This document shows, piece by piece, positions 2,755 through 64,000 of a stretch of DNA of 64,000 nucleotides. The notes beneath the pieces were generated by a model. That model was not told where the DNA came from. It was given only the letters and a program-made list of their open reading frames with translations, and searched no databases. Location: contig PMCS01000006.1 of NCBI GenBank assembly GCA_003154195.1, positions 17,676 to 81,675 of the forward strand, in the 5' to 3' direction. Both the position numbers and the translations under genes were made by a program. The stretch's first letter is position 1. Each line of letters starts with the position of its first letter. The stretch comes from Candidatus Omnitrophota bacterium (GTDB lineage Bacteria; Omnitrophota; Gorgyraeia; Duberdicusellales; 4484-171).

Positions 2755-2968
2755 GCGCTGATGATCGCTGCCCTGGTACCCTGAATAATGTATTTAGGTT
2801 CAGGGCGTCCCGCACCTGGATGTTTATATTCAGGGTAACGGGACTGATTGAGAATCAGCTGATAATCGCGGATAGTAAGATTTATCCGGTATTGGTTTTG
2901 GATTATCTGTGATTATCTGATTCCTTTAATCTGCGATCATCTGTGTTACAAAATTAAAACGAGGAAAA

Positions 2969-4231
2969 ATGAAATACGACGTAAAAAATAAAAGTTTAAG
3001 CAAGGCCGGGAAGAAGCGAATCGAATGGGCGTTGAAACGAATGCCCGTTCTGGAATTAATCCGCGCGCGGTTCGCGAAAGAAAAGCCTTTAAAAGGAGTG
3101 ACGCTGGGCGCCTGCTTGCATGTTACTACCGAAAGCGCGGCGTTGATGCTTACTCTTAAAGAAGCCGGCGCCGACGTGAGTTTATGCGCTTCTAACCCTC
3201 TTTCGACGCAAGACGATACCGCTGCGTCCCTGGTGTGGGATTACGGCATAAAGGTATTTGCCAAGCATGGTGAAGACTCAAAGACGTACTATAGCCATAT
3301 CCGGCAAGTTGTTATGGCGCATCCTCAGGTCACGATGGATGACGGCGCGGACGTTATTGCTTTTATCCATAAAAATCACGCGGCTGATAAGAATATCGTA
3401 TTGCCGTGGGCAAGCACCGAGGAAACGACTACCGGAGTCATCCGTTTGAAAGCCCTGGAGCGGGAGGGCAAACTTTTATACCCGATTGTCGCCGTCAATG
3501 ATGCGCATACCAAGCATCTTTTCGATAATCGTTACGGTACTGGCCAATCAACTCTTGACGGGATCATCCGCGCTACCAATCGCTTGATCGCCGGGACGAC
3601 TTTTGTCGTCGCGGGGTATGGCTGGTGTTCGCGCGGCATTGCCCAGAAAGCCAGGGGCATGGGCGCCAACGTAATCGTTACGGAAGTCGACGCATTCAAA
3701 GCTCTTGAAGCGGTCATGGACGGTTTCCGGGTTATGCCGATGAGCGAAGCAGTTAAGCCGGCTGATGTTATTGTGACGGCAACCGGTGATATCAACGTCG
3801 TCGCCAAACCGCATTTTGCGCTGATGAAAGACGGCGTACTTTTAGCCAACTCCGGCCATTTTAATGTCGAGATAGAATTGCCCGCCTTGGAAAAACTATG
3901 CGTGGCGAAACGCGAAGCTAAACCGATGGTAATGGAATATACTCTTAAAAACCGGAAAAAGATTAATGTTTTAGGCGAGGGGAGGCTGGTCAATCTTGCC
4001 TGTGCCGAAGGCCACCCGGCGGAGGTTATGGATTTAAGTTTTGCCGACCAGTCCTTGAGCGCGGAATATATTGTAAAACATAAAGACGTGCTTGCGAAAA
4101 AAGTATATAAAGTCCCCGACGAAATAGATTATAGCGTCGCGGTTTTAAAACTAAAAGCAATGGGAATCGCAATCGACACCTTGACGGCGGAGCAAAAAAA
4201 ATATCTTTCCAGCTGGGAAGCGGGTACCTAA
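2969..4231 (+). CDS. ahcY: Adenosylhomocysteinase (S-adenosyl-L-homocysteine hydrolase)
   Basis: 420 aa, SD gaggaaaaATG. NAD-binding AGYGWCSRGIAQKARGMGANVIVTEVD and ...KVPDEIDYSVA motifs are typical of SAHH. It is adjacent to metK (SAM cycle). Confidence 0.95.
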   Translation: MKYDVKNKSLSKAGKKRIEWALKRMPVLELIRARFAKEKPLKGVTLGACLHVTTESAALMLTLKEAGADVSLCASNPLSTQDDTAASLVWDYGIKVFAKHGEDSKTYYSHIRQVVMAHPQVTMDDGADVIAFIHKNHAADKNIVLPWASTEETTTGVIRLKALEREGKLLYPIVAVNDAHTKHLFDNRYGTGQSTLDGIIRATNRLIAGTTFVVAGYGWCSRGIAQKARGMGANVIVTEVDAFKALEAVMDGFRVMPMSEAVKPADVIVTATGDINVVAKPHFALMKDGVLLANSGHFNVEIELPALEKLCVAKREAKPMVMEYTLKNRKKINVLGEGRLVNLACAEGHPAEVMDLSFADQSLSAEYIVKHKDVLAKKVYKVPDEIDYSVAVLKLKAMGIAIDTLTAEQKKYLSSWEAGT

Positions 4232-16546: not shown

Positions 16547-16555
16547 AAATAAATT

Positions 16556-18105: not shown

Positions 18106-18202
18106 GCCGGACCAGGAACTTAAAATTAAACAAAAAGAAATCCAGGGTTTATCACCAAAAAAACTACGGGGTCAAACACTGAAAGCTGAAAAGAAAATAA
18201 AA

Positions 18203-18260: not shown

Positions 18261-18285
18261 ATAATAAAAAGAATAGAGAAAAATT

Positions 18286-19047
18286 ATGAAAAACATTTTT
18301 TGGGCTGTAATTCTCATCGGTGTTTTCTTTGTAACATCTCCCGTCATGGCGAATCAGGACGTTTATAACAGTTTACAATCTACTTTAATTTTAGTGGGTG
18401 AATATACCGGTAATAAAAATTACGATACCGATGCTCATGCTTGGCGTCTTGATTACAAAGTGATAACCATTCTGCAGAATAGCAACAATTCGAACCCAAT
18501 CTATTTTATAACACATTTCTTCAGTATGGATTGTAAACCAGGTCGCATTATTACGGTAAGAGGAATAGTGGATTGGAATAAGGAGAACGCGGAAAAAACC
18601 GAGATAAACAGCCGCTGGATTCTGTTTTTGGAAAATAAATACAATATTAAATACAATAAATACGCCGATTATCCTGGATCGTATCACAGTTTAAGAATCC
18701 CCGCAAGTCAGAATAACATGGATAAAATAAAAAAAGAAATGGAGATTAAAAAAAATCTATATTCCAAATCCTGCGATCAGCTGTCAAAACTCTGGAAAGA
18801 CAATTATAAAAAATTAGACAAAAGCTGTTCAAACGACAGCGATTGCATGAAAAGACCGTCTGCTGATTGCGGAAGAGACTGCATCAACAATATAAACGCA
18901 AACAATGCCGCGATCGAGGAAATGTGTTGGAAACTAGATGGTGCTCGTATAGACAAAGGCTGCATCCCCCAGGGTGAGTGTTCCCCTTATATAACTGAAT
19001 GTAAATGCGTAGACAAACAATGTTCCGCGATAGAGAAAAAGCCTTAG
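18286..19047 (+). CDS. Hypothetical secreted protein with Cys-rich C-terminal domain
   Basis: Signal peptide MKNIFWAVILIGVFFVTSPVMA. The C-terminal 90 aa contain 13 Cys (CSNDSDC, CGRDC, CIPQGEC, CKCVDKQC). AT-rich codon usage. Confidence 0.6.
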   Translation: MKNIFWAVILIGVFFVTSPVMANQDVYNSLQSTLILVGEYTGNKNYDTDAHAWRLDYKVITILQNSNNSNPIYFITHFFSMDCKPGRIITVRGIVDWNKENAEKTEINSRWILFLENKYNIKYNKYADYPGSYHSLRIPASQNNMDKIKKEMEIKKNLYSKSCDQLSKLWKDNYKKLDKSCSNDSDCMKRPSADCGRDCINNINANNAAIEEMCWKLDGARIDKGCIPQGECSPYITECKCVDKQCSAIEKKP

Positions 19048-45247: not shown

Positions 45248-46084
45248 CTAATTTCCTTCCAAGAGCGCTTTCCGGGAATAAAAAACCGCGTTTTTGTGGG
45301 CGATATCATTTATCTCAAATGAGTTGATTTCCGGGGCGTCGTAGATTTTTAAAAACCGGCGGATTGATTTTTTTATCTCGTCACCGGCGTTAAACGATAC
45401 CGCGGTTTTGTTTACCGGCGTTACGTCGAGAATCACGGAAAGGCGGCCGTCGGCATAATAAGAATACAGGTCGTTTGTTTTGAAATTTTTGACCATTTCC
45501 TTGTCGGTTAATTTTCGTTCCAGGTTCTGTTTTATGAGATAGGCAAGAAAATTGCCCATCTCCATTTCCGGCATGGTTATATGTTTTCCCAGCGCATCGC
45601 CGATTGCTTCGGTGGTAAGCAAGAAAGTAAAAACTTCCCGCTCCTGCCATTCGCTTAACGAGATCATGCCCGCGTCGACTTTCATTATATCGAGAACCGT
45701 ACCGATATAATAAAGGTCGGCGCCGGTTTTTATATCGGAAAAAACAAACGCATAAAATTTTGGCCGTTTTTCCATACTGAGGATGACGCGTTTTAGCGCG
45801 GTAAAAATCTGGCGCATTTTTGTGTTGGCGTCGTTGTCGAAGGTTTTCTTTTCGGTAAGGATTTTATTGAGGGGAACGTAAACCCAGATAGTGTCGCCGG
45901 CCTCGCGGACAACCGGTTTTACATTAAATTCTTTTCCGCAGATATTAACCAACGATGTTTCGATGTTTTTACGGTTATAGGTATATTTAGGTTTAGAAGG
46001 AGAACAAGCCGGCAAGCATAAGAGAAAAAAAACAACAAGGACGTGCTCAACCAGCTTCTTTAAATACCGCTTCGATTTCGTCAT
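45248..46084 (-). CDS. Hypothetical lipoprotein
   Basis: Lipobox-like FFLLCLPAC. 278 aa. Its 5' end overlaps the 3' end of the upstream FtsH gene by 38 nt, so the start is uncertain. Confidence 0.5.
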   Translation of the reverse strand: MTKSKRYLKKLVEHVLVVFFLLCLPACSPSKPKYTYNRKNIETSLVNICGKEFNVKPVVREAGDTIWVYVPLNKILTEKKTFDNDANTKMRQIFTALKRVILSMEKRPKFYAFVFSDIKTGADLYYIGTVLDIMKVDAGMISLSEWQEREVFTFLLTTEAIGDALGKHITMPEMEMGNFLAYLIKQNLERKLTDKEMVKNFKTNDLYSYYADGRLSVILDVTPVNKTAVSFNAGDEIKKSIRRFLKIYDAPEINSFEINDIAHKNAVFYSRKALLEGN

Positions 46085-49067
46085 AATTGAGTTCTTCTTT
46101 TTCTAATAGCCTGGCCATCAGCTTTTCTAATATCGCGTCTTTTTCTTTTAGCAGCGTTTCGGTTTCTTTCATGCATTCCTGCATTATGTCTTGCACGTCC
46201 GCGTCGAGTTTAGCCATCATTTCTTCGGACATCAATGTTTGCCCGGTACGCTGGTTGGTCAGCGAGGAGAAGTTGCCGATAAACCCGGATTTTCCCATGC
46301 CCCACGACCAGACCATCTGGTGCGCATACTGCATGGCGTTACTGAAATCGCTGCTTACGCCGTCGGATGTAGCGCGGCATTTAAGTTTTTCCGCAGCGTA
46401 TCCACCCAGGGAAACTTTTATACTGCTTAAAATCTGTATTTTGTTATGGACCAATGTTTCAGCTTTCCCCGGCGCCCACATCACGCCGGCGGTTTCTTTG
46501 CGGGGAATAATCGAGAGTTTAAATATTTCCCGGCTGCCGGCTAAGAAATAAGTTACCACCGCGTGCCCCGCTTCATGAACGGCGGTAGAGCGTTTTTCTT
46601 CGTCGCCTAATTTTATACGGCGTTTTAGCCCTAATTCAACGCGTTCGCGCGCTTCATCAATTTCTTTTAATCCCATTGTTTCTTTTTGATTGCGTACGGT
46701 GATCAGCGCTCCTTCGCGTACAATGTTTGATATATCGGCAGGGCTCCAGCCGGCAGTAACGCGGGCGAGCCGGTTGCTGTCGATTTCCTGCGCGTTAAAT
46801 TTAATCTTCGCGAGATAGTAATCAAAAAGTTTGGTGCGGTCTTCCAGGCCGGGTAATTCAACGTATAGTTTTCGGTCAAACCTTCCCGGCCGCAAGAGCG
46901 CCGCGTCAAGAAAATCTTCATTGACGTTGGTCGCGCCGATGATCACGATATTATATTGCTCATTTTTTTCTTTGAGGCCGTCAAGCTCGGTCAAGAGCTG
47001 GTTTAAAGTCTGGTTGTATTCGCGGTCGCCGCCGGAGCGCGCGTCTTCCCGCTTGGCGCCCAGCGCGTCGATTTCATCGATAAAAATGATACAGCCGCCT
47101 TTGGATGAAGCTAATTCCCGCGCTTCCTGGAAAAGATGGCGGATGCGGCTGGCGCCTACGCCGACATACATTTCAACAAATTCCGAACCGGATTTCGCCA
47201 GAAAAGGCAGGCCCGCTTCGTTGGCCATGGCCGAGGCAAGATAGGTCTTACCGCATCCCGGCATCCCAAACATTAAAAGCCCGCGGATGATCCTGCCGCC
47301 TACTTCGTTTAACTGCGCGTGGTCTTTGATCAGGCTGACTATTTCTTTCGCTTCCTGCTTAGCGTCGTCCATGCCGATAACGTCGTCCCAGCCGATTTCG
47401 TTTTCCGATTTTTTCGTAATTTTATCCATAAGGCGAACCTTGCCGTATTCTTTGAAAATCGCCTCGAGCGCGTCGTAATCCAGCTCGTTTTTAGAAACCA
47501 ATTCTCCGGCAATACGCTCCAGGATAACCATTTCTTTGCGCAATAAGTCATGAACCTCGTTAAAGCACTTGTTGATAATATCGGCCTTATCTTTTTCGGC
47601 GATCTGGCGCGAATGCATATCCCACTGTCCGGAAACGGTATTGGGCCCCGATGTTCCCATACCCCACTTGAAAGCCATACTTTCGGCAACCACATTGGCG
47701 GTTTCAAGGTCGTTTCCCACGCCGCTGGTGGTAACGCCGAATTTTATTTTTTCGGCGCAATAGCCGCCTAAGCAAATCCGTATTTCATTCAATAAATCGT
47801 CTTTGTCGGGAGCAAAAACTTCTTCTTTTTGCGCGATCCAGGTCGAGCCCAGAAGGCTTGTCCGGGGGATAATGCTGGCTTTAAAAACGTCTTTTGTCGG
47901 AACCATAAGATAGGTAACGATGGCATGTCCCGCTTCATGATAGGCGGTAGAAATTCGTTCTTTTTCGCTCATCGTAAGGTTTATTTTGATGCCCATGGCA
48001 AGACGTTCGCGCGCTTCCTCGATGTCGGACATCATCACCGACTGTCTTTTTTTGCGGGCCGCGATTAACGATGCTTCGCGGACAATATTGGCGATGTCGG
48101 CGGGAGTGTTTCCGATGGTCAATCTTCCCAGCCGGTCAATTTTTACGTCACTGGTGTTGTATTGGATTTTGTCCAGATAATACTTAAAGATTTCTCCGCG
48201 GTCTTTAAGGTTAGGGAAGCCGATATAAATTTTTCGGTCAAAACGGCCGGCGCGCATCAGGGCCGAGTCAAGTTCATTTTCCGGCACATTGGTGGCGGCG
48301 ACGATAATAATATTTTTCTCTTTTTGCTTGATGCCGTCCATTTCCGCGAGCAACTGGTTGACGGCCATATTATAGCTTTCCGCGCCGCCCAGGCCGAAAC
48401 CGCGCGTGCGCGGCCGGGCTACGGAATCGACTTCGTCGATAAAAATAATACATCCGCCTTTCATGTCGGCAAGTTCGCGCGCCAGCTTAAAGAGTTTCTT
48501 TATTTTCATCGCGCCTAAGCCGACGATAATCCCTTCCAGTTCGCTGCCGATAACCGAGAGAAAGGGTATGCCGCATTCGGTAGCGATTGCTTTTGCCAGG
48601 TACGTTTTGCCGACGCCTGGTTGGCCGATGAGGAGCAAGCCTTTAATCAAAGGGGCGCCGATAGTGGTAAGACGCGTGCGTTCCCGGATAAGCTCTACTG
48701 CTTCCCATGCTTCGCGTTTGGCATCTTCCATACCGATTACGTCTTTCCATTTTATCCCGATTTCATCGCCCCGGAGAGCTTTAGTCTGTAATTTTGAAAA
48801 CTCACTATAGCCGCCGCCCCGGTACATCCAGTAGAGGAAGTATACGTAAATGGCGCCGCCCATGATCGAGCCGATAAGGTAGAGGTAAAGCTGGTAACCC
48901 ATACCGGCCTTCATCTGTTCCTTATAGAATGATTCCATGCCCATCCAGGCTTTAGCGCTGGCGTAGATTACCGTAATCAATGAAATCACCAGGAGCGCTA
49001 ATACCGTAATGACAAGAATGCGCAGCCAGTATAATCGTAAAAAGATTTTTGCTTTTCTTGGATCCAT
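46047..49067 (-). CDS. ftsH: Tandem double-FtsH: membrane-anchored protein with two complete AAA+ ATPase plus M41 zinc-metalloprotease units in one polypeptide
   Basis: SD aggag. Two N-terminal TM helices with no periplasmic domain. Unit 1: Walker A GQPGVGKT, Walker B IIFIDEVD, SRH ATNVPENELDSALMRAGRFDRK, HEAGH. Unit 2: GMPGCGKT, IIFIDEID, ATNVNEDFLDAALLRPGRFDRK, HEAGH. 1006 aa. Confidence 0.9.
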   Translation of the reverse strand: MDPRKAKIFLRLYWLRILVITVLALLVISLITVIYASAKAWMGMESFYKEQMKAGMGYQLYLYLIGSIMGGAIYVYFLYWMYRGGGYSEFSKLQTKALRGDEIGIKWKDVIGMEDAKREAWEAVELIRERTRLTTIGAPLIKGLLLIGQPGVGKTYLAKAIATECGIPFLSVIGSELEGIIVGLGAMKIKKLFKLARELADMKGGCIIFIDEVDSVARPRTRGFGLGGAESYNMAVNQLLAEMDGIKQKEKNIIIVAATNVPENELDSALMRAGRFDRKIYIGFPNLKDRGEIFKYYLDKIQYNTSDVKIDRLGRLTIGNTPADIANIVREASLIAARKKRQSVMMSDIEEARERLAMGIKINLTMSEKERISTAYHEAGHAIVTYLMVPTKDVFKASIIPRTSLLGSTWIAQKEEVFAPDKDDLLNEIRICLGGYCAEKIKFGVTTSGVGNDLETANVVAESMAFKWGMGTSGPNTVSGQWDMHSRQIAEKDKADIINKCFNEVHDLLRKEMVILERIAGELVSKNELDYDALEAIFKEYGKVRLMDKITKKSENEIGWDDVIGMDDAKQEAKEIVSLIKDHAQLNEVGGRIIRGLLMFGMPGCGKTYLASAMANEAGLPFLAKSGSEFVEMYVGVGASRIRHLFQEARELASSKGGCIIFIDEIDALGAKREDARSGGDREYNQTLNQLLTELDGLKEKNEQYNIVIIGATNVNEDFLDAALLRPGRFDRKLYVELPGLEDRTKLFDYYLAKIKFNAQEIDSNRLARVTAGWSPADISNIVREGALITVRNQKETMGLKEIDEARERVELGLKRRIKLGDEEKRSTAVHEAGHAVVTYFLAGSREIFKLSIIPRKETAGVMWAPGKAETLVHNKIQILSSIKVSLGGYAAEKLKCRATSDGVSSDFSNAMQYAHQMVWSWGMGKSGFIGNFSSLTNQRTGQTLMSEEMMAKLDADVQDIMQECMKETETLLKEKDAILEKLMARLLEKEELNYDEIEAVFKEAG

Positions 49068-51879: not shown

Positions 51880-52134
51880 CATCAGCGAAGCTGATGAGCA
51901 GATATTTTTTTACGCAGTAAACCCCTCCACCGATGTTCCGGGGTTCACCGCCTTCCTAAAATTAATATATCGAGGAAGCGGGATCCCGCCGAGTCGCTAC
52001 TCAGACGCAGGCGGGAAATTCGGCTATCCCCTTACGGGGATAATTCAACTAAGCCCGGGGTACCGGGCAAGTTTCATTACCACCTCGTGCTACGCCTTTC
52101 GGACTTGCGCTCGGTTAAGCCTCATTAAAAATAT
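51880..52134. repeat. Mosaic repeat (CTCATTAA family, long form) abutting the purU start
   Basis: atcagcgaagctgat; tttttttacgcagtaaacccctcc; ggggttcaccgccttcc; gcgggatcccgccgag; gcaggcgggaaattcggctatccccttacggggataattcaactaagcccggggtaccgggcaagtttcattac; cttgcgctcggttaagcctcattaaaaatatATG. Confidence 0.9.
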
Positions 52135-53059: not shown

Positions 53060-53551
53060 TTACTTACTTCGTCGTCCGCGCCCTTTGGGGTAAAATCGCT
53101 CGCCAAATTTAGCCAACTGGGTAAGGAAGTGGTCAGAGCCTATTGCCGGGACACTGCTTTTGAATAATTTTGTCTCTTCCCGATTATCTTGACTTACCCA
53201 TTGCTTATATTGCTGGGGATCGGTTAACCCATGCCCTTCAATTTCGGGATCGATATCGGTAATGCCGTCGTTTAACCCATTAAGCAGCGGAATGGTCCAA
53301 AAGATGAAAACGAACGTAATTACGCTTATAATCAGGACGCGATGATGAGGATGTTCGCGGGGTTTTTTCTCAACGTCGAAGCTGTTGATATTGAAAGTTT
53401 TCGTAAGTTTATTTGCGATATGCACGAAGTTTTGCTGAAGGGACCGGAAGGGAAAACTCCTTATATGCCGGAGCTTTCGGCAGAGCTTTATGGTGCCAGA
53501 TATGCTGAAGAAATGGGAGAGAGTATTGTACATCGTGCGCGCGCGCTTCAA
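53060..53551 (-). CDS. Hypothetical single-pass membrane protein (doubtful)
   Basis: 163-aa ORF. The TM and C-terminal part (53060-53340) is non-overlapping. The basic N-terminal 70 codons are antisense to the first 70 codons of the Fic-like ORF. May be spurious or use a different start. Confidence 0.3.
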   Translation of the reverse strand: MKRARTMYNTLSHFFSISGTIKLCRKLRHIRSFPFRSLQQNFVHIANKLTKTFNINSFDVEKKPREHPHHRVLIISVITFVFIFWTIPLLNGLNDGITDIDPEIEGHGLTDPQQYKQWVSQDNREETKLFKSSVPAIGSDHFLTQLAKFGERFYPKGRGRRSK

Positions 53552-54217
53552 TGGAGCCAGGAACTATCCGAGCGATTACTGAAAATATTAAAAAATATCA
53601 AGGGAGAATACCTTAACAACGATCGCAGGGTTACCCTTGGATTGTTGGTCGGTATCGCTCAATTTTATTTTTACGGTCTGAGAAGATACCCCTTTCTCGG
53701 TGGTAATAATTCTCTACTCATGAACATTGTTAATGATTTATTACTCCTATGCTTGGGTAAGCGGTATTTCATAGGAAACATTGATTCTGTTCATTCTTAT
53801 GCCTGGGACGATAAAAATCGGCCGGAGCTTCTTTACGCGTATTTTTTACAACGGGTGAAGATCGCCAACTCCGATAACGATAAAGTAAATTGGACGCCGG
53901 AAAAATTGGCAAGATTTAATATCACCCAGGCGGATTTTGACGATATAATAAAATATCTTTCAAGGCAGTCGCAAAGGGACGATCTCAGTTCCAGCCCAAC
54001 CGATTTTGGCGCCGCCAAAATTGATGACGGATTTTTCGCGGCAGCGGAAAATCCGGGGGGTATTGACTTCCGCCGTAAGAATTTCGGTCTCAGTTCGTCG
54101 CCCGCCGCCTCCGCTGTCGGCACCGCTTCCCCGGTTTCCGAGATAACCGGCCTCACCTTTACGATCATTTCCCTCACCGATATACCGCCGAAGGAATTAG
54201 CCTTGTTGATAAACTAA
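53342..54217 (+). CDS. Fic-fold protein with degenerate active-site motif
   Basis: GLRRYPFLGGNNSLLMNIVNDLLLL aligns with the Fic core HPFxDGNGRxxRLLMNLLL, with His to Tyr and GNGR to GNNS changes. Low-complexity Ser/Ala tail. The start may be at a later Met (53420, 53465 or 53513). Confidence 0.45.
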   Translation: MMRMFAGFFLNVEAVDIESFRKFICDMHEVLLKGPEGKTPYMPELSAELYGARYAEEMGESIVHRARALQWSQELSERLLKILKNIKGEYLNNDRRVTLGLLVGIAQFYFYGLRRYPFLGGNNSLLMNIVNDLLLLCLGKRYFIGNIDSVHSYAWDDKNRPELLYAYFLQRVKIANSDNDKVNWTPEKLARFNITQADFDDIIKYLSRQSQRDDLSSSPTDFGAAKIDDGFFAAAENPGGIDFRRKNFGLSSSPAASAVGTASPVSEITGLTFTIISLTDIPPKELALLIN

Positions 54218-58028: not shown

Positions 58029-59414
58029 TTACTTTTGGTAGGTTTTAAACCCGGTTTCCGCTTTCAGCTTGGCAAGGTATTTGGCTCTTGTCTCGGGTGA
58101 TTGTGAGTGCTTGACGTAGTCGATGTAGCCTTGTTTTTTGGCGGTGAAATCCGCCTGGTCAAACGAGGAAATATCTTTTGCCTGGATAAGGCAGGAACCT
58201 TCGGCCAGTGCCAGCGGTTCCTTGTAAATTTCGTTTTTCTTCAGCGAAAAAATAAGATTTTTAATTTTTGCGTCAAATCCCAATACCGGAACGAATTCGG
58301 AATACCTGAAAAAATCAGTTTCGCCGTACTTAACCTTCGCGTCTTTTTCCAGGGTTTTTAAGTCGGCGATTTTTTCGCCGGTTATTCTTTCCAGCAAAGC
58401 CCGGCAGTATTTATCCGCTAAAACTTTTTTCGCCGCGCGCTCCGCCCGTTTTTTAACTTCGTTCTTTATCTCGGCCAGAGCGGGGATGTAAGCTTCTTCC
58501 TGGCCGGTTTTTTCAATGATACAATAACCTTTTTTTATCTCGATTGCCTCGCCGATTTCCCCCTTTTTTAAGGTAAAAGCAAAATCGTTGATCTCCGGTT
58601 CGTCGCCGATGCCGTAAACCGGGTCTTTGGCCCGGAAATAACCGGTTTCTACCGCGGCCAGGCCGAATTTGGCGGCGAACTCGTCAAGTTTGTCGATTGC
58701 GTCGGCGGCTTTTAAGATTTCGTCTTTTGCGGGGTCATCTTTTGCCACAATCACATATTTTATTTTCGCTTTTGCTTCTTCCTTAAAGGTGTCCTTATTT
58801 TTGTTGTAGAATTCTTCGATTTCCTGGTCGGACGTGTTTACTCGGCCGTCAAAATCATCATCGGATACCAGAAGGTAGGAAATTTTCGCTTTTCGGGTGT
58901 CTTTATCGTACAACTCTCTGATTTGCTTGTCGTCAATCTTGACCGCGGCGTACTTTTCGTAAACTTTTTCTATTTTCATGGTATTGCGCAGCTGTTCTTC
59001 GAAGACGCGCGGTTGTACCCGAAGGGATCTCAACAACCGAAAATAGTTTTCTTTTTTAAACACGCCGCCGAAAGAGAGGGTATCGACAATTTTTTTCGCT
59101 ACCTCTTCGTCGCTTACTTTTATCCGGTCCTTGTCCGCTTTCCAATTTAAAACCAGATAGTCCCAGGCAGTTTTTTTGATCAACTGAGCGGTAAAAGCGT
59201 CTTTTTTCTGGCTGGCATATTGCATTTCTGCCATTCTATAATATGGGAGGAATTCGAAGGAGGATATCTTTCGCTTGGCGATTTCCGCGATTGCGTCGCT
59301 GTCTTTAGTTTTGAAATAAGCGAGGCCGCCCCAGAGCACAAACGCCGGGATGATCATTACGGCCAAAGCGATGAGAATTCTTTTTACATGATGCGCGCGG
59401 AATATCGTAAGCAT
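58029..59414 (-). CDS. Periplasmic chaperone / peptidyl-prolyl isomerase of the PpiD/SurA family
   Basis: N-terminal TM anchor ILIALAVMIIPAFVLWGGLAY. Two parvulin-like segments (...KKGEIGEAIEIKKGYCIIEK...; ...KKNEIYKEPLALAEGSCLIQAKD...). Upstream on the minus strand is ggcgaagtctcattaaaggagaaagaaacaATG. Confidence 0.7.
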   Translation of the reverse strand: MLTIFRAHHVKRILIALAVMIIPAFVLWGGLAYFKTKDSDAIAEIAKRKISSFEFLPYYRMAEMQYASQKKDAFTAQLIKKTAWDYLVLNWKADKDRIKVSDEEVAKKIVDTLSFGGVFKKENYFRLLRSLRVQPRVFEEQLRNTMKIEKVYEKYAAVKIDDKQIRELYDKDTRKAKISYLLVSDDDFDGRVNTSDQEIEEFYNKNKDTFKEEAKAKIKYVIVAKDDPAKDEILKAADAIDKLDEFAAKFGLAAVETGYFRAKDPVYGIGDEPEINDFAFTLKKGEIGEAIEIKKGYCIIEKTGQEEAYIPALAEIKNEVKKRAERAAKKVLADKYCRALLERITGEKIADLKTLEKDAKVKYGETDFFRYSEFVPVLGFDAKIKNLIFSLKKNEIYKEPLALAEGSCLIQAKDISSFDQADFTAKKQGYIDYVKHSQSPETRAKYLAKLKAETGFKTYQK

Positions 59415-59427: not shown

Positions 59428-59560
59428 TTTAATGAGACTTCGCCGATAATGAAACTTGCCCGGTACCCCGGGCTTAGTTGAATTATCCCCGCAAGGGGAT
59501 AGGCGAAGGGTGATGAGTTCGAAGTTTCACCAAATGCCCGACGGCATTACCGGCAGGCAT
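59428..59560. repeat. Mosaic repeat (CTCATTAA family) in reverse orientation, serving the minus-strand PpiD-like gene
   Basis: Reverse complement reads cgcctatccccttgcggggataattcaactaagcccggggtaccgggcaagtttcattatcggcgaagtctcattaa. Nearly identical to the module at 52040-52090. Confidence 0.85.
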
Positions 59561-59848
59561 TCTTTTGGTCAACATTATAATATATTACCTACCGGGTTGT
59601 AAATTGCAAGATTTATATTCAGAGTAACGGGATAGGAAAAATAATAGTGAAGCTTACGCATTTGCAAGCCGAAGGCGAGGCAAATGTCTCCATCTAAGCT
59701 ATCTCCGCAAGGGAATAGCGTGAATCAAGCCAATGTTTAATGCGGCACCTTGATTTTACATTTTGAATATGTTATACCTTAATAAGGGGTTTGTCTGTGC
59801 CCGCGCTTAGGAGCGAATAAACTCAATGATGGCAAGGGTATTTTCCGT

Positions 59849-62800
59849 ATGCTGGCCAAGAAAACCTGGTTCAAAATAATTAATCTTTGCCTGATTCCGA
59901 TATTTATCGGCTTACCGCTGTCCAGTGAAGCGGCGGCTGCTTCGGCAACGCTTTTGCCTGAACCGGGCGCGATGCTCGGCGTTTCCGCCCCTTTCCAGCC
60001 GGCGACGCTTAAAGGCGTGCGCCTTGACCCCAAAAACCCCTTGAATATCAGGTTTATTATCGACCCCGGTACGGCGGGTGAGGTTGTGCCGGCGGAAGCC
60101 TCGCGCCTGGTGCGGTATTTTTTAGCCGGACTTACCTTGCCCGAGGAAAGTTTATGGGTAAATTTGTCGTTGTATGAGCAGGATCGCGTTATTGATTCTG
60201 CCGTCGCGCAAACCGATTTAGGCCGCGATATGCTGGGCCAGGATTACGTGTTGAAACAATTTATCGCCTCGTTGACCCATCCGGATTCTCCGGTAGGCCG
60301 TGATTATTGGAAGCAAACCTATCAGGCGGCTGCCGAACGCTTCGGCGCGGCTAATGTGCCTTTAAATACCTTCAGCAAAGTCTGGATAACCCACGACCAG
60401 GCCGAAGTCTATGAATATAACGATACCGCGTTTATCAGCAAGGCGAGCTTGAAGGCAATGCTTGAGCAAGACTTGTTAGCGCTGGAGAAAAGCGTTAAGC
60501 CGGTTGGGACAGTTGAGCCGGTTGGGCCAGTTGTAGGGTTAAAATCTCCTAACCGGCACAACAGGCTAAACCGGCTCAACGGACACAACGCCTTAACTGT
60601 CAACAAAGTCGCCTTCGACGTAATGCGCGAGGTTATCGTTCCTGTGATCACGCGGGATATCAATGACGGCGCTAACTTTGCCGCCTTACGCCAGATCTAC
60701 CATTCGCTTATCCTTGCCAAATGGTTTAAAGAGAAATTTAAAGCGTCGTTTTATAAATATTATATCAATAACAAAAACCTTTCGGCGATCGACCTTAAAG
60801 ACCCCAGAGTTAAAGATAAGATTTACGGGCTGTACGCCGAGGCGTTTAAGAAAGGCCTCTACAGTATCATCAAAAAGGAGATCGACCCGGCGAGCAAGCG
60901 GCCGGTGCGCCGGCGTTACTTTTCCGGCGGTATTTCCAGTCCCGTACCGCGGCATCTTACGGTGATCCTCGCGGCTTCCAATCTGATAGAGAAGTTACAA
61001 GCAGAAACGCGTAAGTCGTTCCAAGCTGATGTAAATATTACCTCCGCGAGCCCCGCGGCAAGCCCAAGAGTAATGACCCCTGCTAGTGAAGCTAAAACTA
61101 TCCCCCGTCGGGAGGTAGCGCTCGACAAATTAGAATTGCCGGAATACCTGCGTGCGGCGTTTTTAGCGGAAAAAGATGACTATAATTTTTATTCAGCGCT
61201 AACGGCATTTCAAAACGCGAGGAGCGGCTCAGGGGGGGAGAAGTTAGCGGACATTATGGAAGATAGGAGCGGGCGATATGGCGGGTCGCAACGCCGTTCT
61301 GTTGAGCGTATCATCAGCGGCAGCGGCATGGCTATTGTTGCTTACGCCGAGGCCGCGCGCGACTATCGAGATGTTTTTGAATTGCTTGCGGATATGGCTT
61401 TATATTTCAAAAATAACAATGTTGAAGCTAATTCCTGGCGGAGTTCAGCTTATGCCGCCGCGGCTAAAAGAAATTTGCGCGAAGCTGTTCCGGAGATGCT
61501 CAGGATTATTCTTATTGAGGATAAGGGGATAGTTCATCCTTTGGTTCAAGAAGACATTATTATTGCCTTGGGCATGATGGGTATAAGAAAGAGGCCGGTA
61601 ATAAAGGCGCTTAAAAATGCCGCGGCAAGCCGGCAAATATGGAGGCACGATGCCGCAGTAAAAGCGTTGATTAGTTTAGGGATTCATACTGCCTCAAGTA
61701 CGGTTAATATCGACATTATCGCCGACAGGCTTAAGAAAGAGATAATACCTAAGTATATGAAGCCGTCGTTAAGCTCTAAGGATATGAAAGATTTAATTCT
61801 GGCATTCAGGGTTTTTCTGCGCGACACCTCGCCTGACGCGGCCGATTCATTTTTCCGGCGCGATGATGAAAATGGAAACGAATGGGATATATCTTTTATT
61901 CGCGACGGGACGCGCGCGGAAATAATATGCGGCTCATATTACGGAGCGAACGGTATAAGGCGCCGCGCGCGCATCTTTATCGATGGCGCGTTTACCGCGC
62001 CGGAGAAGGTTAATGCTCCGTTAGTTCTGCCGCTATATATGCTTGCGGTATTTTCAGCTAAAAAGGATAATCCTTTTTTTATTCCCGCTGTTCATGCGCT
62101 GCGACGGGCTCAGGGCGATCTCGCGTTAGCGGCGCCGATCCTCATCGATAGTAATCCCGCGATACCGACATTGGCCGCCATTGCCGCTATTATGGAAAAT
62201 AGGGGTCATCAATATAGTGAACTGGAGCGCCGTTCGATGGCGTCGGCCATTGGTGAAATCGATCCCGGGGGGATGTTTATCGGGATAGATAAAGTCATCG
62301 AGGCGTTATTTGCCGGCCTTAGCCAAGACGACCGGCTTTCCGGTTCGTATATTATCAAGGCGATCGGAGATTTTGTTTCTAAGGCCGACTCCCTGGTTAT
62401 TGAGCAATGCGCCCCTCGCCTGATAGCATCCGAAGGCGTTTTACCCGGTTCAACCGGAAATCGGAGATTTATCGCCGGCGCCTTAAGCAAATTCGGTGAA
62501 CGCGCGGCGTCGGCCGAAACGGAAAGGTATTTATATGATATGGCGGTTCAACCCCGGCGGCAGGCGCAAGGCGTTGCCGGAGGCGATAACTCCGGGGAGC
62601 GGGCTGAGGCAGTACTTGCTTACGCTAATGTAGTAAGGGGTCGTGCCAAAGTTTTTAAAATGCTTGAGCTAATGGCTACCAATATTTCCGATGACCATTC
62701 TTATGTTGCAAGGGCCCGGCGTTTAGCCTATGTGGTTGCCGCTAATAAAAATTTGCGCGAAATTATTCCCGCGATGCTTGACTTGCTTGAACACGCCAAT

Positions 62801-64000
62801 CCCGTAGTTCAGGAAGATGTTGTCCATGCTTTGGGTATGCTGCGCGTTTTAGAGATACCGGCGGAAACAAAAGATTTAATGATTGACGCGCTTACGAAGG
62901 CCGGGGGAAGGAGCCAAAGGTTACGTGAAATCGTCTTAATCGCGTTGAAAGAATTAGGCGTTAATGAGGCCAAAGTCAAAGAGCTTGGCGACGCAATAAC
63001 CGGCTGGGGCATTATTAGAGAAGGTATCATCAAAGAGGGGATACTGGGAAAATTCAGAGAATTTTTGCGTTCCGGCGAGCCGTCCGGCGAATACCGGCAT
63101 GCGGAAGGTAAAAAAACCTGGGCGGTGACTTTCCGGCGCAGGAAAGACAGCGATGACGAAGGCGGCAAGGATAAAGACGGGAAGAATGTGGAAATTTATT
63201 ATAGCTTTGTCGATGATGATGCGCGCGAAAAGAATAAAACCGGGGATTTCTATATCTATGGCGTATTTGTCGCGGCAAGCTCGGCGATAAAGGTCCAGGC
63301 AGAAGAGGTGACCGGCGCGGCCGTCGGTTTAAACGCGGCGGCAAGGCCGGCGGCAGATCTTCGGGCGTCGGAAACAAGGAACTCTTTATATAAATTTGGG
63401 AATTATGGCGACACCAATCATAGATTTCGCATAGTGTCCTCCGCGAGCCCCATGAAGCCGGTTTTAACCGTTTTAACTACACCTTTGACCACAGAGCAAG
63501 AAAAACGTAAAATAAAACTTGAAATAATCGGCGAAGTCATGCGCGATATGGCTAAGGGTTCCCGGTACGCGCATGTCGATACAATAATTGACGCCGCGGA
63601 CCCGATTTTTAGAAAACAACCGGTTCTGGGCCCAGATCCCGATGTGGTGCTGTTGCATGAGGATGATGTCTTTGATGCCGTGGATGAACTCAAGCTTAAA
63701 AGCTCATTCGTATCCCCCTGCTCAGTAAACTCCGAAGGTATGGTCAGCCTGCCGTTATTGAAAACAGAATCCAGTGTCAAAGAACGCGAATATTCGGAAG
63801 AATGGAGGCGTGTAACAACTGAGCACGATTGGAGAGAGGAACCTATCAGCGAAATCATGAGAGACGAACATTTAAACCCGCGGAGCATTCATAGGGCGCT
63901 CGCGGCGATGACCGCTGATCCCGATTATCGATACCGCGTTTATGTGCAAGGCGGATACGTGGTAAGCGAATCAAAAACTGAAAGCAATCGGGGTAAAGCA
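59849..64000 (+). CDS. Giant secreted protein with PBS-lyase/HEAT-like repeats; 1384 codons open in the window, 3' end beyond the window
   Basis: Manual translation from ATG about 59849 gives no in-frame stop to position 64000. N-terminal signal peptide MLAKKTWFKIINLCLIPIFIGLPLSSEAAAASA. Repeated NLREAVPEMLRIILIEDKGIVHPLVQEDIIIALGMMG and NLREIIPAMLDLLEHANPVVQEDVVHALGMLRV modules (HEAT-type). Missing from the supplied ORF track because it has no stop. Confidence 0.7.
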   Translation, partial: MLAKKTWFKIINLCLIPIFIGLPLSSEAAAASATLLPEPGAMLGVSAPFQPATLKGVRLDPKNPLNIRFIIDPGTAGEVVPAEASRLVRYFLAGLTLPEESLWVNLSLYEQDRVIDSAVAQTDLGRDMLGQDYVLKQFIASLTHPDSPVGRDYWKQTYQAAAERFGAANVPLNTFSKVWITHDQAEVYEYNDTAFISKASLKAMLEQDLLALEKSVKPVGTVEPVGPVVGLKSPNRHNRLNRLNGHNALTVNKVAFDVMREVIVPVITRDINDGANFAALRQIYHSLILAKWFKEKFKASFYKYYINNKNLSAIDLKDPRVKDKIYGLYAEAFKKGLYSIIKKEIDPASKRPVRRRYFSGGISSPVPRHLTVILAASNLIEKLQAETRKSFQADVNITSASPAASPRVMTPASEAKTIPRREVALDKLELPEYLRAAFLAEKDDYNFYSALTAFQNARSGSGGEKLADIMEDRSGRYGGSQRRSVERIISGSGMAIVAYAEAARDYRDVFELLADMALYFKNNNVEANSWRSSAYAAAAKRNLREAVPEMLRIILIEDKGIVHPLVQEDIIIALGMMGIRKRPVIKALKNAAASRQIWRHDAAVKALISLGIHTASSTVNIDIIADRLKKEIIPKYMKPSLSSKDMKDLILAFRVFLRDTSPDAADSFFRRDDENGNEWDISFIRDGTRAEIICGSYYGANGIRRRARIFIDGAFTAPEKVNAPLVLPLYMLAVFSAKKDNPFFIPAVHALRRAQGDLALAAPILIDSNPAIPTLAAIAAIMENRGHQYSELERRSMASAIGEIDPGGMFIGIDKVIEALFAGLSQDDRLSGSYIIKAIGDFVSKADSLVIEQCAPRLIASEGVLPGSTGNRRFIAGALSKFGERAASAETERYLYDMAVQPRRQAQGVAGGDNSGERAEAVLAYANVVRGRAKVFKMLELMATNISDDHSYVARARRLAYVVAANKNLREIIPAMLDLLEHANPVVQEDVVHALGMLRVLEIPAETKDLMIDALTKAGGRSQRLREIVLIALKELGVNEAKVKELGDAITGWGIIREGIIKEGILGKFREFLRSGEPSGEYRHAEGKKTWAVTFRRRKDSDDEGGKDKDGKNVEIYYSFVDDDAREKNKTGDFYIYGVFVAASSAIKVQAEEVTGAAVGLNAAARPAADLRASETRNSLYKFGNYGDTNHRFRIVSSASPMKPVLTVLTTPLTTEQEKRKIKLEIIGEVMRDMAKGSRYAHVDTIIDAADPIFRKQPVLGPDPDVVLLHEDDVFDAVDELKLKSSFVSPCSVNSEGMVSLPLLKTESSVKEREYSEEWRRVTTEHDWREEPISEIMRDEHLNPRSIHRALAAMTADPDYRYRVYVQGGYVVSESKTESNRGKA

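What the first reader, a model, noticed from the sequence alone, without database searches (positions are those of the whole stretch)
59849..64000. Giant secreted HEAT-repeat ORF (more than 1384 aa, continues past the window) that the supplied ORF track misses
Manual translation from the first in-frame ATG gives 1384 codons to the window edge with no stop. The protein starts with a classical signal peptide. It contains repeated PBS-lyase/HEAT-like modules (NLREAVPEMLRIIL...VQEDIIIALGMMG; NLREIIPAMLDLLEHANPVVQEDVVHALGMLRV) and a Lys/Asp-rich acidic segment.

It has an about 330-nt 5' UTR that shares a 22-nt motif (tttatattcagRgtaacggga) with the ahcY upstream region.

Giant extracellular repeat proteins are candidates for cell-cell or host-attachment functions. 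Their presence is a hallmark of some uncultured lineages.
Basis: seen in the sequence. Interest (0 to 1): 0.55.

Follow-up and report, generated by a model that had tools for sequence, protein, structure and literature searches.

The report
Capped modular export protein, Omnitrophota family
The open reading frame is a real gene for a 1,840-residue (large but not giant) exported protein. It belongs to a very large, so far unannotated protein family of the uncultured phylum Omnitrophota, in which the same N-terminal domain and the same short C-terminal tag bracket very different middle parts, including whole glycolytic enzymes.

Summary
The ORF at 59849-64000 is real. All 1384 codons are open, the coding signal is in frame 1 only, and identical contigs show it ends 456 codons past the window (1,840 aa, so not giant). 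It has a Sec-type signal peptide. HEAT similarity is sub-threshold and covers one ~60-aa stretch. The shared 21-nt upstream motif exists; its function is unknown.

Only residues ~10-370 have homologues, and there are thousands: 7,704 clusters at 50% identity, and every named hit is Omnitrophota. Family members share four parts:
- a signal peptide;
- a ~330-aa N-terminal domain ("N-cap") with no Pfam, NCBIfam, PDB-sequence or Foldseek-PDB match, ending in an invariant YFSGG;
- a hypervariable cargo;
- a ~55-aa C-terminal tag ("C-cap", GGI[DK][LM]...F-x-I-[IV]).

Cargo elsewhere includes TIM, enolase, PGK, PPDK, kinases, receiver and radical-SAM domains. Here it is an orphan: two HEAT-like modules plus three ~190-aa repeats.

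Best reading: a Sec-exported modular protein whose two caps are shared export, anchoring or assembly handles. C-cap docking onto N-cap is inferred, not shown. The family shares its cargo repertoire with the published Omnitrophota giant proteins, but the cap architecture was not found in the papers or libraries I could search.

The parts
59849..64000 (+). Coding sequence, residues 1-1384 of a 1,840-aa protein. The last 456 codons, including repeats B2 and B3 and the C-cap, lie beyond the window.
   Evidence: Open frame. Coding score is positive in frame 1 only. The full gene is recovered on identical contigs, L002 4044..9566(-) and L001 243..5765(-), with 1384/1384 residues identical.
59849..59935 (+). 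Signal peptide or signal anchor (aa 1-29): basic n-region, 17-residue hydrophobic run, AxA-rich c-region.
   Evidence: Sequence. AF2 helix at aa 3-24. It is the only hydrophobic segment in the protein. Family-wide N-in charge bias.
59936..60931 (+). N-cap: conserved ~330-aa alpha/beta domain (aa 30-361) ending in the invariant YFSGG. It defines the family.
   Evidence: It is the only part with homologues. 7,704 cluster representatives match. About 35 columns are invariant. The AF2 model has pTM 0.73 and core pLDDT above 90. No Pfam, NCBIfam, PDB-sequence or Foldseek-PDB match.
60493..60601 (+). Imperfect ~100-nt palindrome lying in frame inside the variable loop of the N-cap (aa 216-251, low pLDDT).
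   Evidence: Inverted repeat with 34-nt arms, 79% complementary. RNA fold -51.5 kcal/mol, z=-5.5. The same peptide occurs in P0121 and twice in P0024.
60932..61126 (+). Disordered Ser/Pro/Ala-rich linker (aa 362-426) between the N-cap and the cargo.
   Evidence: pLDDT 32-44 for aa 363-420. Homology ends here.
61127..61768 (+). Cargo module A1 (aa 427-640), containing the NLREAVPEML motif. It is homologous to A2.
   Evidence: Internal similarity to aa 724-797 and 921-1041. No Pfam hit on its own.
62018..62980 (+). Cargo module A2 (aa 724-1044). Its aa 956-1017 (62714-62899) is the only HEAT-like stretch seen by Pfam.
   Evidence: HEAT_2 24-26.6 bits, below the 27.7 cut-off; HEAT_EZ 23.8 bits, below 27. 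Duplication of A1.
63134..63268 (+). Lys/Asp/Glu-rich charged segment (aa 1096-1140).
   Evidence: Sequence; 44% charged residues.
63461..64000 (+). Cargo repeat B1 (aa 1205-1384, cut by the window end), the first of three ~190-aa repeats. B2, B3 and the C-cap (aa 1787-1840) lie outside the window.
   Evidence: Self-comparison E down to 2e-19. Alignment A6 has 33 invariant columns. C-cap HMM hit at aa 1787-1837, E=2.6e-10.
59612..59632 (+). 21-nt motif TTTATATTCAGAGTAACGGGA, 217-237 nt upstream of the ATG.
   Evidence: Two copies in the window, none in 100 shuffles. No Rfam match. Function unknown.
2823..2843 (+). Second copy of the 21-nt motif (TTTATATTCAGGGTAACGGGA), 126-146 nt upstream of the AdoHcyase gene (2969..4231).
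   Evidence: No Rfam match.
59484..59502 (.). Perfect 7-4-7 palindrome TATCCCC-GCAA-GGGGATA in the divergent intergenic region. A second copy lies at 59700-59718 and a third at 52024-52042.
   Evidence: Three copies against 0.02 expected.
58029..59414 (-). Divergent neighbour: a PpiD-like periplasmic chaperone (SurA_N_2/SurA_N_3/Rotamase_2), named 'parvulin-like peptidyl-prolyl isomerase' by a source.
   Evidence: The adjacency is specific to this locus: none of the 80 other family loci has it.
53342..54217 (+). [quoted passage not shown] It shows the tag can occur on its own.
   Evidence: C-cap HMM E=3.6e-11. No Pfam family.

Best explanation
The ORF encodes a 1,840-aa, Sec-exported, modular protein of an Omnitrophota bacterium. 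It is one member of a very large phylum-restricted family that I call 'capped cargo' proteins.

Shown:
1. The gene is real and ends 456 codons past the window.
2. Its architecture is: signal peptide; a ~330-aa conserved N-terminal alpha/beta domain (N-cap) ending in YFSGG; a disordered Ser/Pro linker; a cargo; and a ~55-aa C-terminal tag (C-cap, GGIKM...IFTIVSL).
3. The two caps are shared by thousands of proteins, and the part between them is freely exchanged. It can be intact TIM, or enolase, PGK, PPDK, PGM, kinase, methyltransferase, receiver, J, radical-SAM or HEAT domains.
4. The cargo of this protein is an orphan built from internal duplications: two partly HEAT-like helical modules, a charged segment, and three ~190-aa repeats.

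Inferred:
- The N-terminal signal sends the whole polypeptide across the cytoplasmic membrane. There is no second TM segment to bring the cargo back.
- The caps are common handling modules. The N-cap is an anchoring or receptor domain, and the C-cap is a docking or sorting tag that binds an N-cap in cis or in trans. Family members would then be retained and assembled at the cell envelope as multi-protein arrays.
- With its helical-repeat cargo, this member would act as a binding or scaffolding subunit rather than an enzyme.

I put about 0.85 on 'real exported member of the capped family' and about 0.3 on the specific C-cap-onto-N-cap docking mechanism.
For: Gene reality.

Family:
- 232 word-index hits match only query aa ~10-370, always at the subject's N-terminus.
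- Exhaustive phmmer finds 7,704 representatives, 5,995 of them at E<=1e-30.
- At least 592 matches occur in species genomes, and every named one is Omnitrophota.

Caps are paired:
- The C-cap is found in 194 of 243 members, at a median of 1 residue from the C-terminus and never deep inside a protein.
- In 1.19 Mb of loci, 105 ORFs have an N-cap, 75 have a C-cap and 62 have both. Nearly all single-cap ORFs are cut by a locus end.
- The target's own C-cap scores E=2.6e-10.

Export:
- Family-wide charge bias is N-in, followed by AxA-type sites.
- 204 of 243 members, including the target, have no further hydrophobic segment.

N-cap is a real folded domain under strong constraint:
- About 35 columns are invariant.
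- AF2 pTM is 0.73.
- Median identity is ~50% both within and between genomes.

Docking hint:
- In the two-cap model of P0129, the mostly extended C-cap reaches pLDDT 80-93 although a disordered 80-residue linker precedes it.
- The invariant 'WV' of LWVNLSPYE becomes a strand, and its block rises from pLDDT 59-66 (N-cap-only model of the target) to 81-91.
- A C-cap-only protein exists in this window.

Cargo exchange:
- Pfam on members.
- A tandem array of aldolase-like, TIM+enolase and PGK+PPDK genes, all with both caps.
- TIM catalytic motifs are intact in P0020 and P0005.

Orphan cargo.
Against: - No coordinates or PAE were available, so C-cap/N-cap contact rests on pLDDT and DSSP strings from two different proteins.
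- No signal-peptide predictor could be run.
- Much of the family's cargo is classically cytoplasmic (radical SAM, receiver, sigma-70 region 4, J domain, ATP-dependent glycolytic enzymes). This sits badly with export.
- No partner machinery was identified. The window holds no secretion genes, and the PpiD-like neighbour is not conserved in other loci.
- A few complete members lack a detectable C-cap.
- The window's affiliation to Omnitrophota rests on family membership only.
Confidence: 0.6

Rival explanations
1. Host- or prey-directed effector. The caps are recognition signals for a dedicated secretion system, and the cargo is delivered into or onto another cell, where 'cytoplasmic' domains make sense.
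For: - The cargo repertoire is typical of effectors or of cytoplasmic proteins: kinases, ankyrin, J, receiver, radical SAM, glycolytic enzymes.
- A C-cap-only protein without a signal peptide exists, as expected for a C-terminal secretion signal.
- Omnitrophota are host-dependent or predatory, and RNA from V. archaeovorus is seen inside prey cells (PMC10066038; PMC13153191).
- Giant relatives sit next to T2SS/Tad-like loci and PilZ genes. PilZ genes also interleave with capped genes in L089.
Against: - An N-terminal Sec signal plus a 330-aa folded N-domain is not expected for one-step C-terminal-signal systems.
- No secretion genes lie in the window or downstream.
- This protein's own cargo has no recognisable effector domain.
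- Nothing here shows translocation.
Confidence: 0.2
2. Cytoplasmic-face, membrane-tethered assemblies. The N-terminal helix is only an anchor, the N-cap is a scaffold, and the cargo (for example a glycolytic metabolon) works inside the cell.
For: - Cargo functions are cytoplasmic.
- A tandem array encodes most of lower glycolysis as capped proteins with intact TIM motifs.
- Both preprints report doubts about predicted extracellular localisation of such domains.
Against: - The charge distribution is strongly N-in, which places the C-terminal bulk outside.
- AxA-type sites follow the helix.
- 84% of members have no second TM segment to return the chain to the cytoplasm.
Confidence: 0.15
3. One reading: a giant extracellular HEAT-repeat adhesin for cell-cell or host attachment, possibly sortase- or LPXTG-anchored.
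For: - Signal peptide.
- HEAT-like duplicated modules.
- HEAT is the most frequent domain of the giant Omnitrophota 'Archaeovorins'.
Against: - The protein is 1,840 aa, not giant.
- HEAT_2 is below Pfam's cut-off and covers about 60 of 1,840 residues.
- There are no LPXTG, RTX, C-terminal TM or adhesin domains.
- The defining conserved parts are the caps, not the repeats.
Confidence: 0.12
4. Pro-protein. Both caps are removable pro-domains cut at their invariant Gly-Gly boundaries (YFSGG| and GG|IDL), for example by the C39-type double-glycine peptidases common in Omnitrophota long proteins. This would release free cargo.
For: - Invariant GG at the end of the N-cap and at the start of the C-cap.
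- A disordered linker follows YFSGG.
- C39 peptidase domains are reported in giant relatives.
Against: - GG may simply be a structural turn. Eleven GG dipeptides occur in this protein.
- No C39 gene is in the window.
- There is no proteomic evidence.
Confidence: 0.08
5. Not a gene: a chance open frame or an assembly artefact.
For: None beyond its absence from the ORF list, which the lister's rule about ORFs running off the end explains.
Against: - Frame-specific coding signal.
- Thousands of homologues at E down to 1e-116.
- An identical gene on at least 4 independent contigs from different samples.
Confidence: 0.01

Closest known systems
Omnitrophota long and giant multi-domain proteins ('Archaeovorins' and multi-enzyme giants; West-Roberts et al. 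2023 bioRxiv 10.1101/2023.11.21.568195; Nielsen & Lui 2026 bioRxiv 10.64898/2026.06.07.730766)
   Same: - Same phylum.
- N-terminal signal peptide or TM segment.
- Same cargo repertoire: HEAT_2, PPDK, PGM/PMM, glycosyltransferase/starch synthase, receiver, radical SAM, methyltransferase, HATPase_c.
- Internal repeats, fast-diverging sequence, and PilZ genes interleaved in some loci.
- A Rotamase_2 PPIase lies next to this gene.
   Different: - Those papers treat proteins of 10,000 aa or more (or genes above 90 kb) with many TM helices. This family is 0.5-3.9 kaa and mostly has a single N-terminal hydrophobic segment.
- The papers say the N-terminal regions 'generally lack identifiable domains' and describe neither the N-cap nor the C-cap.
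- No T2SS/Tad locus is near this gene.
- Whether the giants carry the caps was not testable here.
Type IX secretion cargo (N-terminal Sec signal, variable functional domains, conserved C-terminal sorting domain)
   Same: The logic is the same: a Sec signal, arbitrary cargo, and a small beta-rich tag at the extreme C-terminus shared by many otherwise unrelated proteins of one phylum.
   Different: - No hit to T9SS CTD models (TIGR04183/PF18962 types) in Pfam or NCBIfam.
- The C-cap is shorter (~55 aa).
- T9SS cargo has no common N-terminal domain.
- T9SS belongs to Bacteroidota, not to the PVC group.
Two-partner secretion TpsA proteins (signal peptide, conserved ~250-aa N-terminal TPS domain, long variable passenger)
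   Same: A conserved N-terminal domain directly after the signal peptide acts as the common handle of long, highly variable exported proteins with many paralogues.
   Different: - No TPS/Haemagg_act hit.
- The N-cap is a mixed alpha/beta fold in the AF2 model, not a beta-helix.
- TpsA proteins have no shared C-terminal tag.
- No TpsB-like gene is adjacent.
Cellulosome cohesin-dockerin assemblies, and SLH-anchored surface enzymes
   Same: Many different enzymes carry one small terminal docking module that binds a receptor domain to build envelope-bound multi-enzyme complexes. The C-cap-only protein would be a pure 'dockerin-bearing' subunit.
   Different: - No dockerin, cohesin or SLH hit.
- Here the receptor candidate and the tag sit on the same polypeptide.
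- Binding is inferred only from AF2 confidence patterns.
LapA-like RTX adhesins (N-terminal retention module, long repeats, C-terminal T1SS signal)
   Same: Two-ended design: an N-terminal retention domain and a C-terminal ~60-aa signal bracket a long repetitive middle.
   Different: - Those proteins lack a Sec signal and carry GGxGxD repeats, which are absent here.
- No T1SS genes are nearby.

Membership tests
Omnitrophota 'capped cargo' family (unnamed; defined here) | N-terminal basic and hydrophobic signal segment directly before the conserved domain | tested here: met
   aa 1-29.
Omnitrophota 'capped cargo' family (unnamed; defined here) | N-cap domain with the invariant motifs LWVNLSxYE, QDYxLKQ, NKVWI, NF..LRQIY, YFSGG | tested here: met
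   E=3e-113 to the best homologue. All invariant columns are present in the query.
Omnitrophota 'capped cargo' family (unnamed; defined here) | C-cap (GGI[DKN][LMF] ... G/x-F/L-T/S-F/P-x-I-I/V) at the extreme C-terminus | tested here: met
   aa 1787-1837 of the full-length protein from L002, HMM E=2.6e-10. It lies outside the window.
HEAT-repeat / PBS-lyase HEAT-like proteins (Pfam HEAT_2 PF13646, HEAT_PBS PF03130) | Score at or above Pfam's gathering threshold | tested here: not met
   HEAT_2 24.0 bits (whole protein) and 26.6 bits (module A2), below 27.7. HEAT_EZ 23.8 bits, below 27. No PF03130 hit. Module A1 gives no hit.
HEAT-repeat / PBS-lyase HEAT-like proteins | Tandem array of helix-turn-helix repeats forming a solenoid | not tested
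Only sequence similarity of two duplicated modules is shown.
Giant 'Archaeovorin'-type proteins (West-Roberts 2023) | Gene above 90 kb (over 30,000 aa) with many TM helices | tested here: not met
   1,840 aa with one hydrophobic segment.
Giant 'Archaeovorin'-type proteins (West-Roberts 2023) | Conserved neighbourhood: T2SS/T4P-like locus and Rotamase_2 PPIase upstream, PilZ downstream | tested here: inconclusive
   A Rotamase_2 PPIase is adjacent. No T2SS or pilus genes are in the 64 kb. tmRNA and rpe lie downstream rather than PilZ.
T9SS cargo | C-terminal domain matching T9SS CTD models | tested here: not met
   No such hit in NCBIfam or Pfam at E<=1 for the full-length target or for three members with C-caps.
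TpsA (two-partner secretion) | N-terminal TPS (Haemagg_act) domain | tested here: not met
   No Pfam or NCBIfam hit on the N-terminal 400 aa. The AF2 model is alpha/beta, not a beta-helix.
Sortase substrates and other C-terminal anchor classes | LPXTG-type motif, or a CTERM sorting signal, followed by a TM helix and a basic tail | tested here: not met
   No LPxTG. C-terminal hydropathy stays at or below 1.39. No NCBIfam CTERM model hit.
RTX / T1SS substrates | GGxGxD nonapeptide repeats before a C-terminal signal, and no Sec signal | tested here: not met
   No nonapeptide repeats. A Sec-type N-terminus is present.
ClyA-family alpha-pore-forming toxins (NheA, Hbl, MakA/B/E) | Significant structural superposition | tested here: not met

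The most novel reading that the evidence does not exclude
The N-cap and C-cap are the two handles of a previously unrecognised, Omnitrophota-specific export and assembly (or host-delivery) system. The system would take fully functional 'cytoplasmic' enzymes out of the cell. These include a near-complete lower-glycolysis set encoded as tandem capped genes. The protein in this window would be a non-enzymatic scaffold subunit of that system.
Probability: 0.25. Interest if true: 0.85.

Novelty: new variant of a known kind. Interest (0 to 1): 0.6.

Why it matters
Omnitrophota are abundant, uncultured, ultra-small bacteria thought to live on or prey upon other microbes. Their very long exported multi-enzyme proteins are a recognised puzzle. 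This gene points to a discrete family that can be searched for by sequence: 7,704 clusters at 50% identity, defined by two conserved ends around freely exchanged cargo.

The two caps give practical handles:
- to list the whole repertoire in each genome;
- to search by co-occurrence for the machinery that recognises them;
- to test experimentally where enzymes such as TIM, enolase, PGK and PPDK end up in these cells.

The N-cap is a confidently modelled domain with no sequence or Foldseek-PDB relative, so it may be a new fold. For this particular protein the practical consequence is modest: it should be annotated as a member of this family, not as a giant HEAT-repeat adhesin.

Tried and rejected
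- Homologues of the cargo (aa 400-1790): none at E<=1e-3.
- Profile searches of modules A and B and of the N-cap against PDB sequences: nothing below E=0.2.
- Pfam at E<=10 on single modules: only the sub-threshold HEAT hits.
- C-cap profile against the 5.8-billion-protein set: only 14 short fragments among 264 candidates, which was uninformative.
- PPIase synteny as a family feature: rejected, with 0 of 80 other loci showing it.
- 'SSP' junction motif as a family signature: only 0.43 sites per cargo, and not among the over-represented tripeptides listed, so not pursued.
- Fic-like reading of the 291-aa C-cap-only protein (YPFLGGNNS): no Pfam support.
- The 21-nt motif as a known RNA element: no Rfam match in either intergenic region. 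The metagenome scan found it only in one unrelated sequence family, which are chance matches. The two upstream regions share little beyond the motif.
- Concerted evolution of the caps within genomes: mostly rejected. Tandem paralogues are usually as divergent (~50%) as proteins from different genomes, and only a few recent duplicates reach 70-85%.
- An organism label from housekeeping neighbours: sources give product names only.

Full report
OBSERVATION

Translating window 59849-64000 (+) gives 1384 codons with no stop. The frame is closed by TAA at 59783-59785, and no alternative start codon lies between that stop and the ATG at 59849. A codon-usage log-odds score trained on 21 other long ORFs of the window is +0.31 bits/codon in frame 1 and negative in the five other frames. 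The training genes score 0.11-0.53. The ORF lister leaves the gene out only because, by its own rule, it omits ORFs that run off an end.

The divergent upstream gene (58029..59414, -) led to four independent metagenome contigs that carry the same locus. On these the gene is complete: 1,840 aa, identical to the window over all 1384 residues. The protein is therefore large but not giant. It ends 456 codons past the window, and a tmRNA gene and rpe follow it.

The Lys/Asp-rich stretch is at aa 1096-1140. Pfam sees only HEAT_2, at 24-26.6 bits against a cut-off of 27.7, over aa 956-1017. NCBIfam and PDB sequences give nothing.

The shared upstream motif is real. It is 21 nt long, 20 of 21 bases are identical, it lies at 2823-2843 and 59612-59632, and it was not found in any of 100 shuffles. 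It matches no Rfam family. The two regions share little else. A scan of metagenome contigs found the motif only in one unrelated sequence. No transcription start is known, so the '330-nt 5' UTR' is not established. The 434-nt gap is a divergent intergenic region.

WHAT IT IS

A search of 5.8 billion proteins returned 232 hits. Every one aligns only to query residues ~10-370, always at the subject's own N-terminus. Nothing matches residues 420-1384. The hits are 0.8-2.3 kaa proteins of Candidatus Omnitrophota.

Behind the shared N-terminal part these proteins carry very different Pfam domains:
- glycolytic and related enzymes: triosephosphate isomerase, enolase, phosphoglycerate kinase, pyruvate phosphate dikinase, phosphoglycerate and phosphogluco-mutases, FBP aldolase/phosphatase, glucose-6-phosphate isomerase, glycogen synthase;
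- signalling and other domains: protein kinases, methyltransferases, receiver, J, FHA, ankyrin, sigma-70 region 4, radical SAM and HEAT.

An exhaustive phmmer search with residues 30-374 against 1.84 billion cluster representatives found 7,704 proteins at E<=1e-3 and 5,995 at E<=1e-30. The domain is N-terminal in all listed hits, and their lengths run from 422 to 3,895 aa. In species-representative genomes there are at least 592 matches. Every named record is Omnitrophota, apart from MAGs generically labelled Planctomycetales, and several copies occur per genome.

The domain, which I call the N-cap, has about 35 invariant positions, including W103, E110, D132, Y133, K136, W154, N272, R281, Q282 and W292. 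It ends in an invariant YFSGG. AlphaFold2 with the family alignment gives a confident mixed alpha/beta model (pTM 0.73; 178 residues at pLDDT 90 or above). The model has three long beta-hairpins and six helices, followed by a disordered linker. It has no Pfam, NCBIfam or PDB-sequence match. It also has no significant Foldseek match in the PDB. The top hits for both models are ClyA-type toxins, but at E=0.14-0.6 and TM ~0.1, which I treat as noise.

A second shared element lies at the other end. Most members finish with a ~55-aa tag, GGI[DKN][LMF] ... G-[FL]-[TS]-[FP]-x-I-[IV]. An HMM of this tag finds it in 194 of 243 family proteins, at a median of one residue from the C-terminus and never deep inside a protein.

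In 1.19 Mb of Omnitrophota DNA fetched around N-cap genes, 105 ORFs have an N-cap, 75 have a C-cap and 62 have both. Almost every single-cap ORF is cut by the end of the fetched stretch or by a frameshift. The target's own C-terminus, NPLGGIKMSGLQVSAAPGSSPVSFAAIGPEFFKNIIFTIVSLRK, matches at E=2.6e-10. Neither cap matches T9SS CTD, TPS, autotransporter, dockerin or CTERM-sorting models. The protein has no LPXTG motif, RTX repeats or C-terminal TM helix.

One clear exception to the pairing lies in this very window. The 291-aa product of 53342..54217 has no signal peptide and no N-cap, but it ends in a typical C-cap (E=3.6e-11). The tag can therefore act independently.

The cargo of the target (aa ~427-1786) has no detectable homologue anywhere. 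It is built by internal duplication: two modules A (partly HEAT-like), a charged segment, and three ~190-aa repeats B. None has a PDB or Pfam relative.

TOPOLOGY AND MECHANISM

Across the family the hydrophobic N-terminal run (mean 18 residues) is preceded by 3.0 Lys/Arg and followed by 1.0. This holds in 139 of 169 members, and AxA-type sites commonly follow the run. This is the signature of a Sec signal peptide or an N-in signal anchor. By a hydropathy scan, 204 of 243 members, including the target, have no further hydrophobic segment. The N-cap, cargo and C-cap are therefore predicted to lie together outside the cytoplasmic membrane.

This is uncomfortable for cargo such as radical-SAM, receiver or ATP-dependent glycolytic domains. 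Both preprints on Omnitrophota long proteins voice the same discomfort. At least some cargo is likely to be functional. P0020 and P0005 keep the TIM catalytic Lys, His and Glu motifs, whereas the P0021/P0013 group has lost them. On one contig three tandem genes encode an aldolase-like domain, TIM+enolase and PGK+PPDK. All three carry both caps and nearly identical signal peptides, and small PilZ genes lie between them.

A near-minimal member (P0129: N-cap, a 120-aa spacer, C-cap) was modelled as a whole. The C-cap is mostly extended, yet it reaches pLDDT 80-93 after an 80-residue disordered linker. The invariant 'WV' of LWVNLSPYE becomes a strand, and its block rises to pLDDT 81-91, compared with 59-66 in the N-cap-only model of the target. 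I read this as a hint that the C-cap docks on the conserved face of the N-cap. Coordinates and PAE were not available, so this is inference.

N-cap identity is ~50% both between tandem paralogues and between genomes, with a few recent duplicates at 70-85%. The domain is therefore ancient and strongly constrained, and the paralogues are not being homogenised.

My best explanation follows. This is a Sec-exported modular protein whose two caps are family-wide handling modules for anchoring or reception (N-cap) and for docking or sorting (C-cap). This member contributes a non-enzymatic, helical-repeat binding or scaffold cargo. The rivals are:
- delivery as effectors to host or prey, which is plausible given the lifestyle and the transfer of predator RNA into prey cells (PMC13153191);
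- cytoplasmic-face tethering, which the charge bias and the lack of a second TM segment contradict;
- removal of both caps at their Gly-Gly borders;

CONTEXT

The window is an ordinary chromosomal region. It encodes ScpB, MetK, AhcY, PFK, IlvD, MreB/MreC/PBP2/RodA, an Ech-type hydrogenase, a CHASE kinase, tRNA-Thr, a tandem double FtsH, two Band_7 proteins, PurU, pyruvate:ferredoxin oxidoreductase and a PpiD-like chaperone. It holds no secretion system.

The PpiD-like neighbour makes functional sense for a long exported protein. It also echoes the Rotamase_2 gene reported near giant genes. However, it is not a conserved neighbour of the family, because none of the 80 other loci has it. Sources list the exact protein without a name, or as 'hypothetical protein'.

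COMPARISON WITH WHAT IS KNOWN

The closest known things are the long and giant Omnitrophota proteins (West-Roberts 2023; Nielsen & Lui 2026). They share the phylum, signal peptides, cargo repertoire, repeats and PilZ neighbours. Those studies, however, concern proteins of 10 kaa or more. They state that the N-terminal regions lack identifiable domains, and they describe no common N- or C-terminal module. Seymour 2023 does not mention fusions or signal peptides at all. A full-text search for a conserved N-terminal domain in Omnitrophota found nothing relevant.

In its logic the design resembles T9SS cargo (a shared C-terminal tag), TpsA proteins (a shared N-terminal secretion domain), cohesin-dockerin assemblies, and LapA-type adhesins (two functional ends). 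It fails the defining sequence tests of each, so these are analogies of function, not memberships.

VERDICT

The gene is not a giant HEAT-repeat adhesin. It is a mid-sized member of a huge, unannotated, two-capped cargo family. Within the limits of the libraries and papers I could search, that architecture is a new variant of the known Omnitrophota large-exported-protein theme. How the caps work remains inferred.

Noticed in passing
window 53342-54217 (+): A 291-aa protein with no signal peptide, no N-cap and no Pfam family ends in a clear C-cap (ENPGGIDFRRKNFGLSSSPAASAVGTASPVSEITGLTFTIISLTDIPP, HMM E=3.6e-11). It is the only complete C-cap-only gene seen in 1.19 Mb of related DNA. It lies between purU and the pyruvate:ferredoxin oxidoreductase genes.
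   Followed up: partly
window 60493-60601 (+), inside the N-cap coding region: A ~100-nt imperfect palindrome (34-nt arms, 79% complementary; RNA fold -51.5 kcal/mol, z=-5.5) lies in frame and encodes the variable loop VKPVGTVEPVGPVVGLKSPNRHNRLNRLNGHN. Nearly the same peptide occurs in P0121 and at two positions in P0024. This suggests a palindromic element that inserts in frame, comparable to Rickettsia palindromic elements. This is its only copy in the window.
   Followed up: partly
window 52024-52042 (-), 59484-59502, 59700-59718: Three copies of a 7-4-7 palindrome, TATCCCC-GCAA-GGGGATA, against 0.02 expected. Two lie in the divergent region between the PpiD-like gene and the target, and one lies 93 nt upstream of purU. 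It could be an operator or a small hairpin element. The only Rfam hits were weak CRISPR-repeat-like matches far below threshold.
   Followed up: partly
L089 7002-22171 (contig Hain_H43_02um_R3_326, Omnitrophota): A tandem array of three capped genes encodes an aldolase-like (GatZ_KbaZ) domain, TIM+enolase and PGK+PPDK. That is most of lower glycolysis, each gene with a signal peptide, an N-cap and a C-cap. A PilZ gene lies between the second and third genes, and the signal peptides are nearly identical.
   Followed up: partly
family members P0021, P0013, P0018, P0026 against P0020, P0005: TIM-barrel cargo comes in two states. Catalytic Lys/His/Glu motifs are intact in P0020 and P0005 (NWKM, GHSERR, AYEPVWAIG). 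They are replaced in the P0021/P0013 group, which makes those likely pseudo-enzymes.
   Followed up: partly
window 46047-49067 (-): A 1,006-aa protein contains two complete FtsH units in tandem (AAA + AAA_lid_3 + Peptidase_M41, twice), which is an unusual duplicated FtsH. Two Band_7 (HflK/C-like) genes lie beside it, on the opposite strand.
   Followed up: no
L002 3122-3546 (-), about 0.5 kb beyond the target's stop codon and outside the window: A tmRNA gene (Rfam 151.6 bits) lies immediately downstream of the target. ARAGORN predicts an unusually long 33-residue tag peptide.
   Followed up: no
window 15213-15788 (+): An IS200-like Y1 transposase fragment (Y1_Tnp, E=1.9e-8) sits next to several ORFs without any Pfam family (15863-19047), in an otherwise housekeeping region.
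   Followed up: no
L090 1-9500 (1.19-Mb Omnitrophota contig, upstream of capped gene P0019): The stretch upstream of this capped gene holds a serine recombinase and then PIN, patatin and TIR_2 domain genes. This looks like a small defence or mobile island.
   Followed up: no
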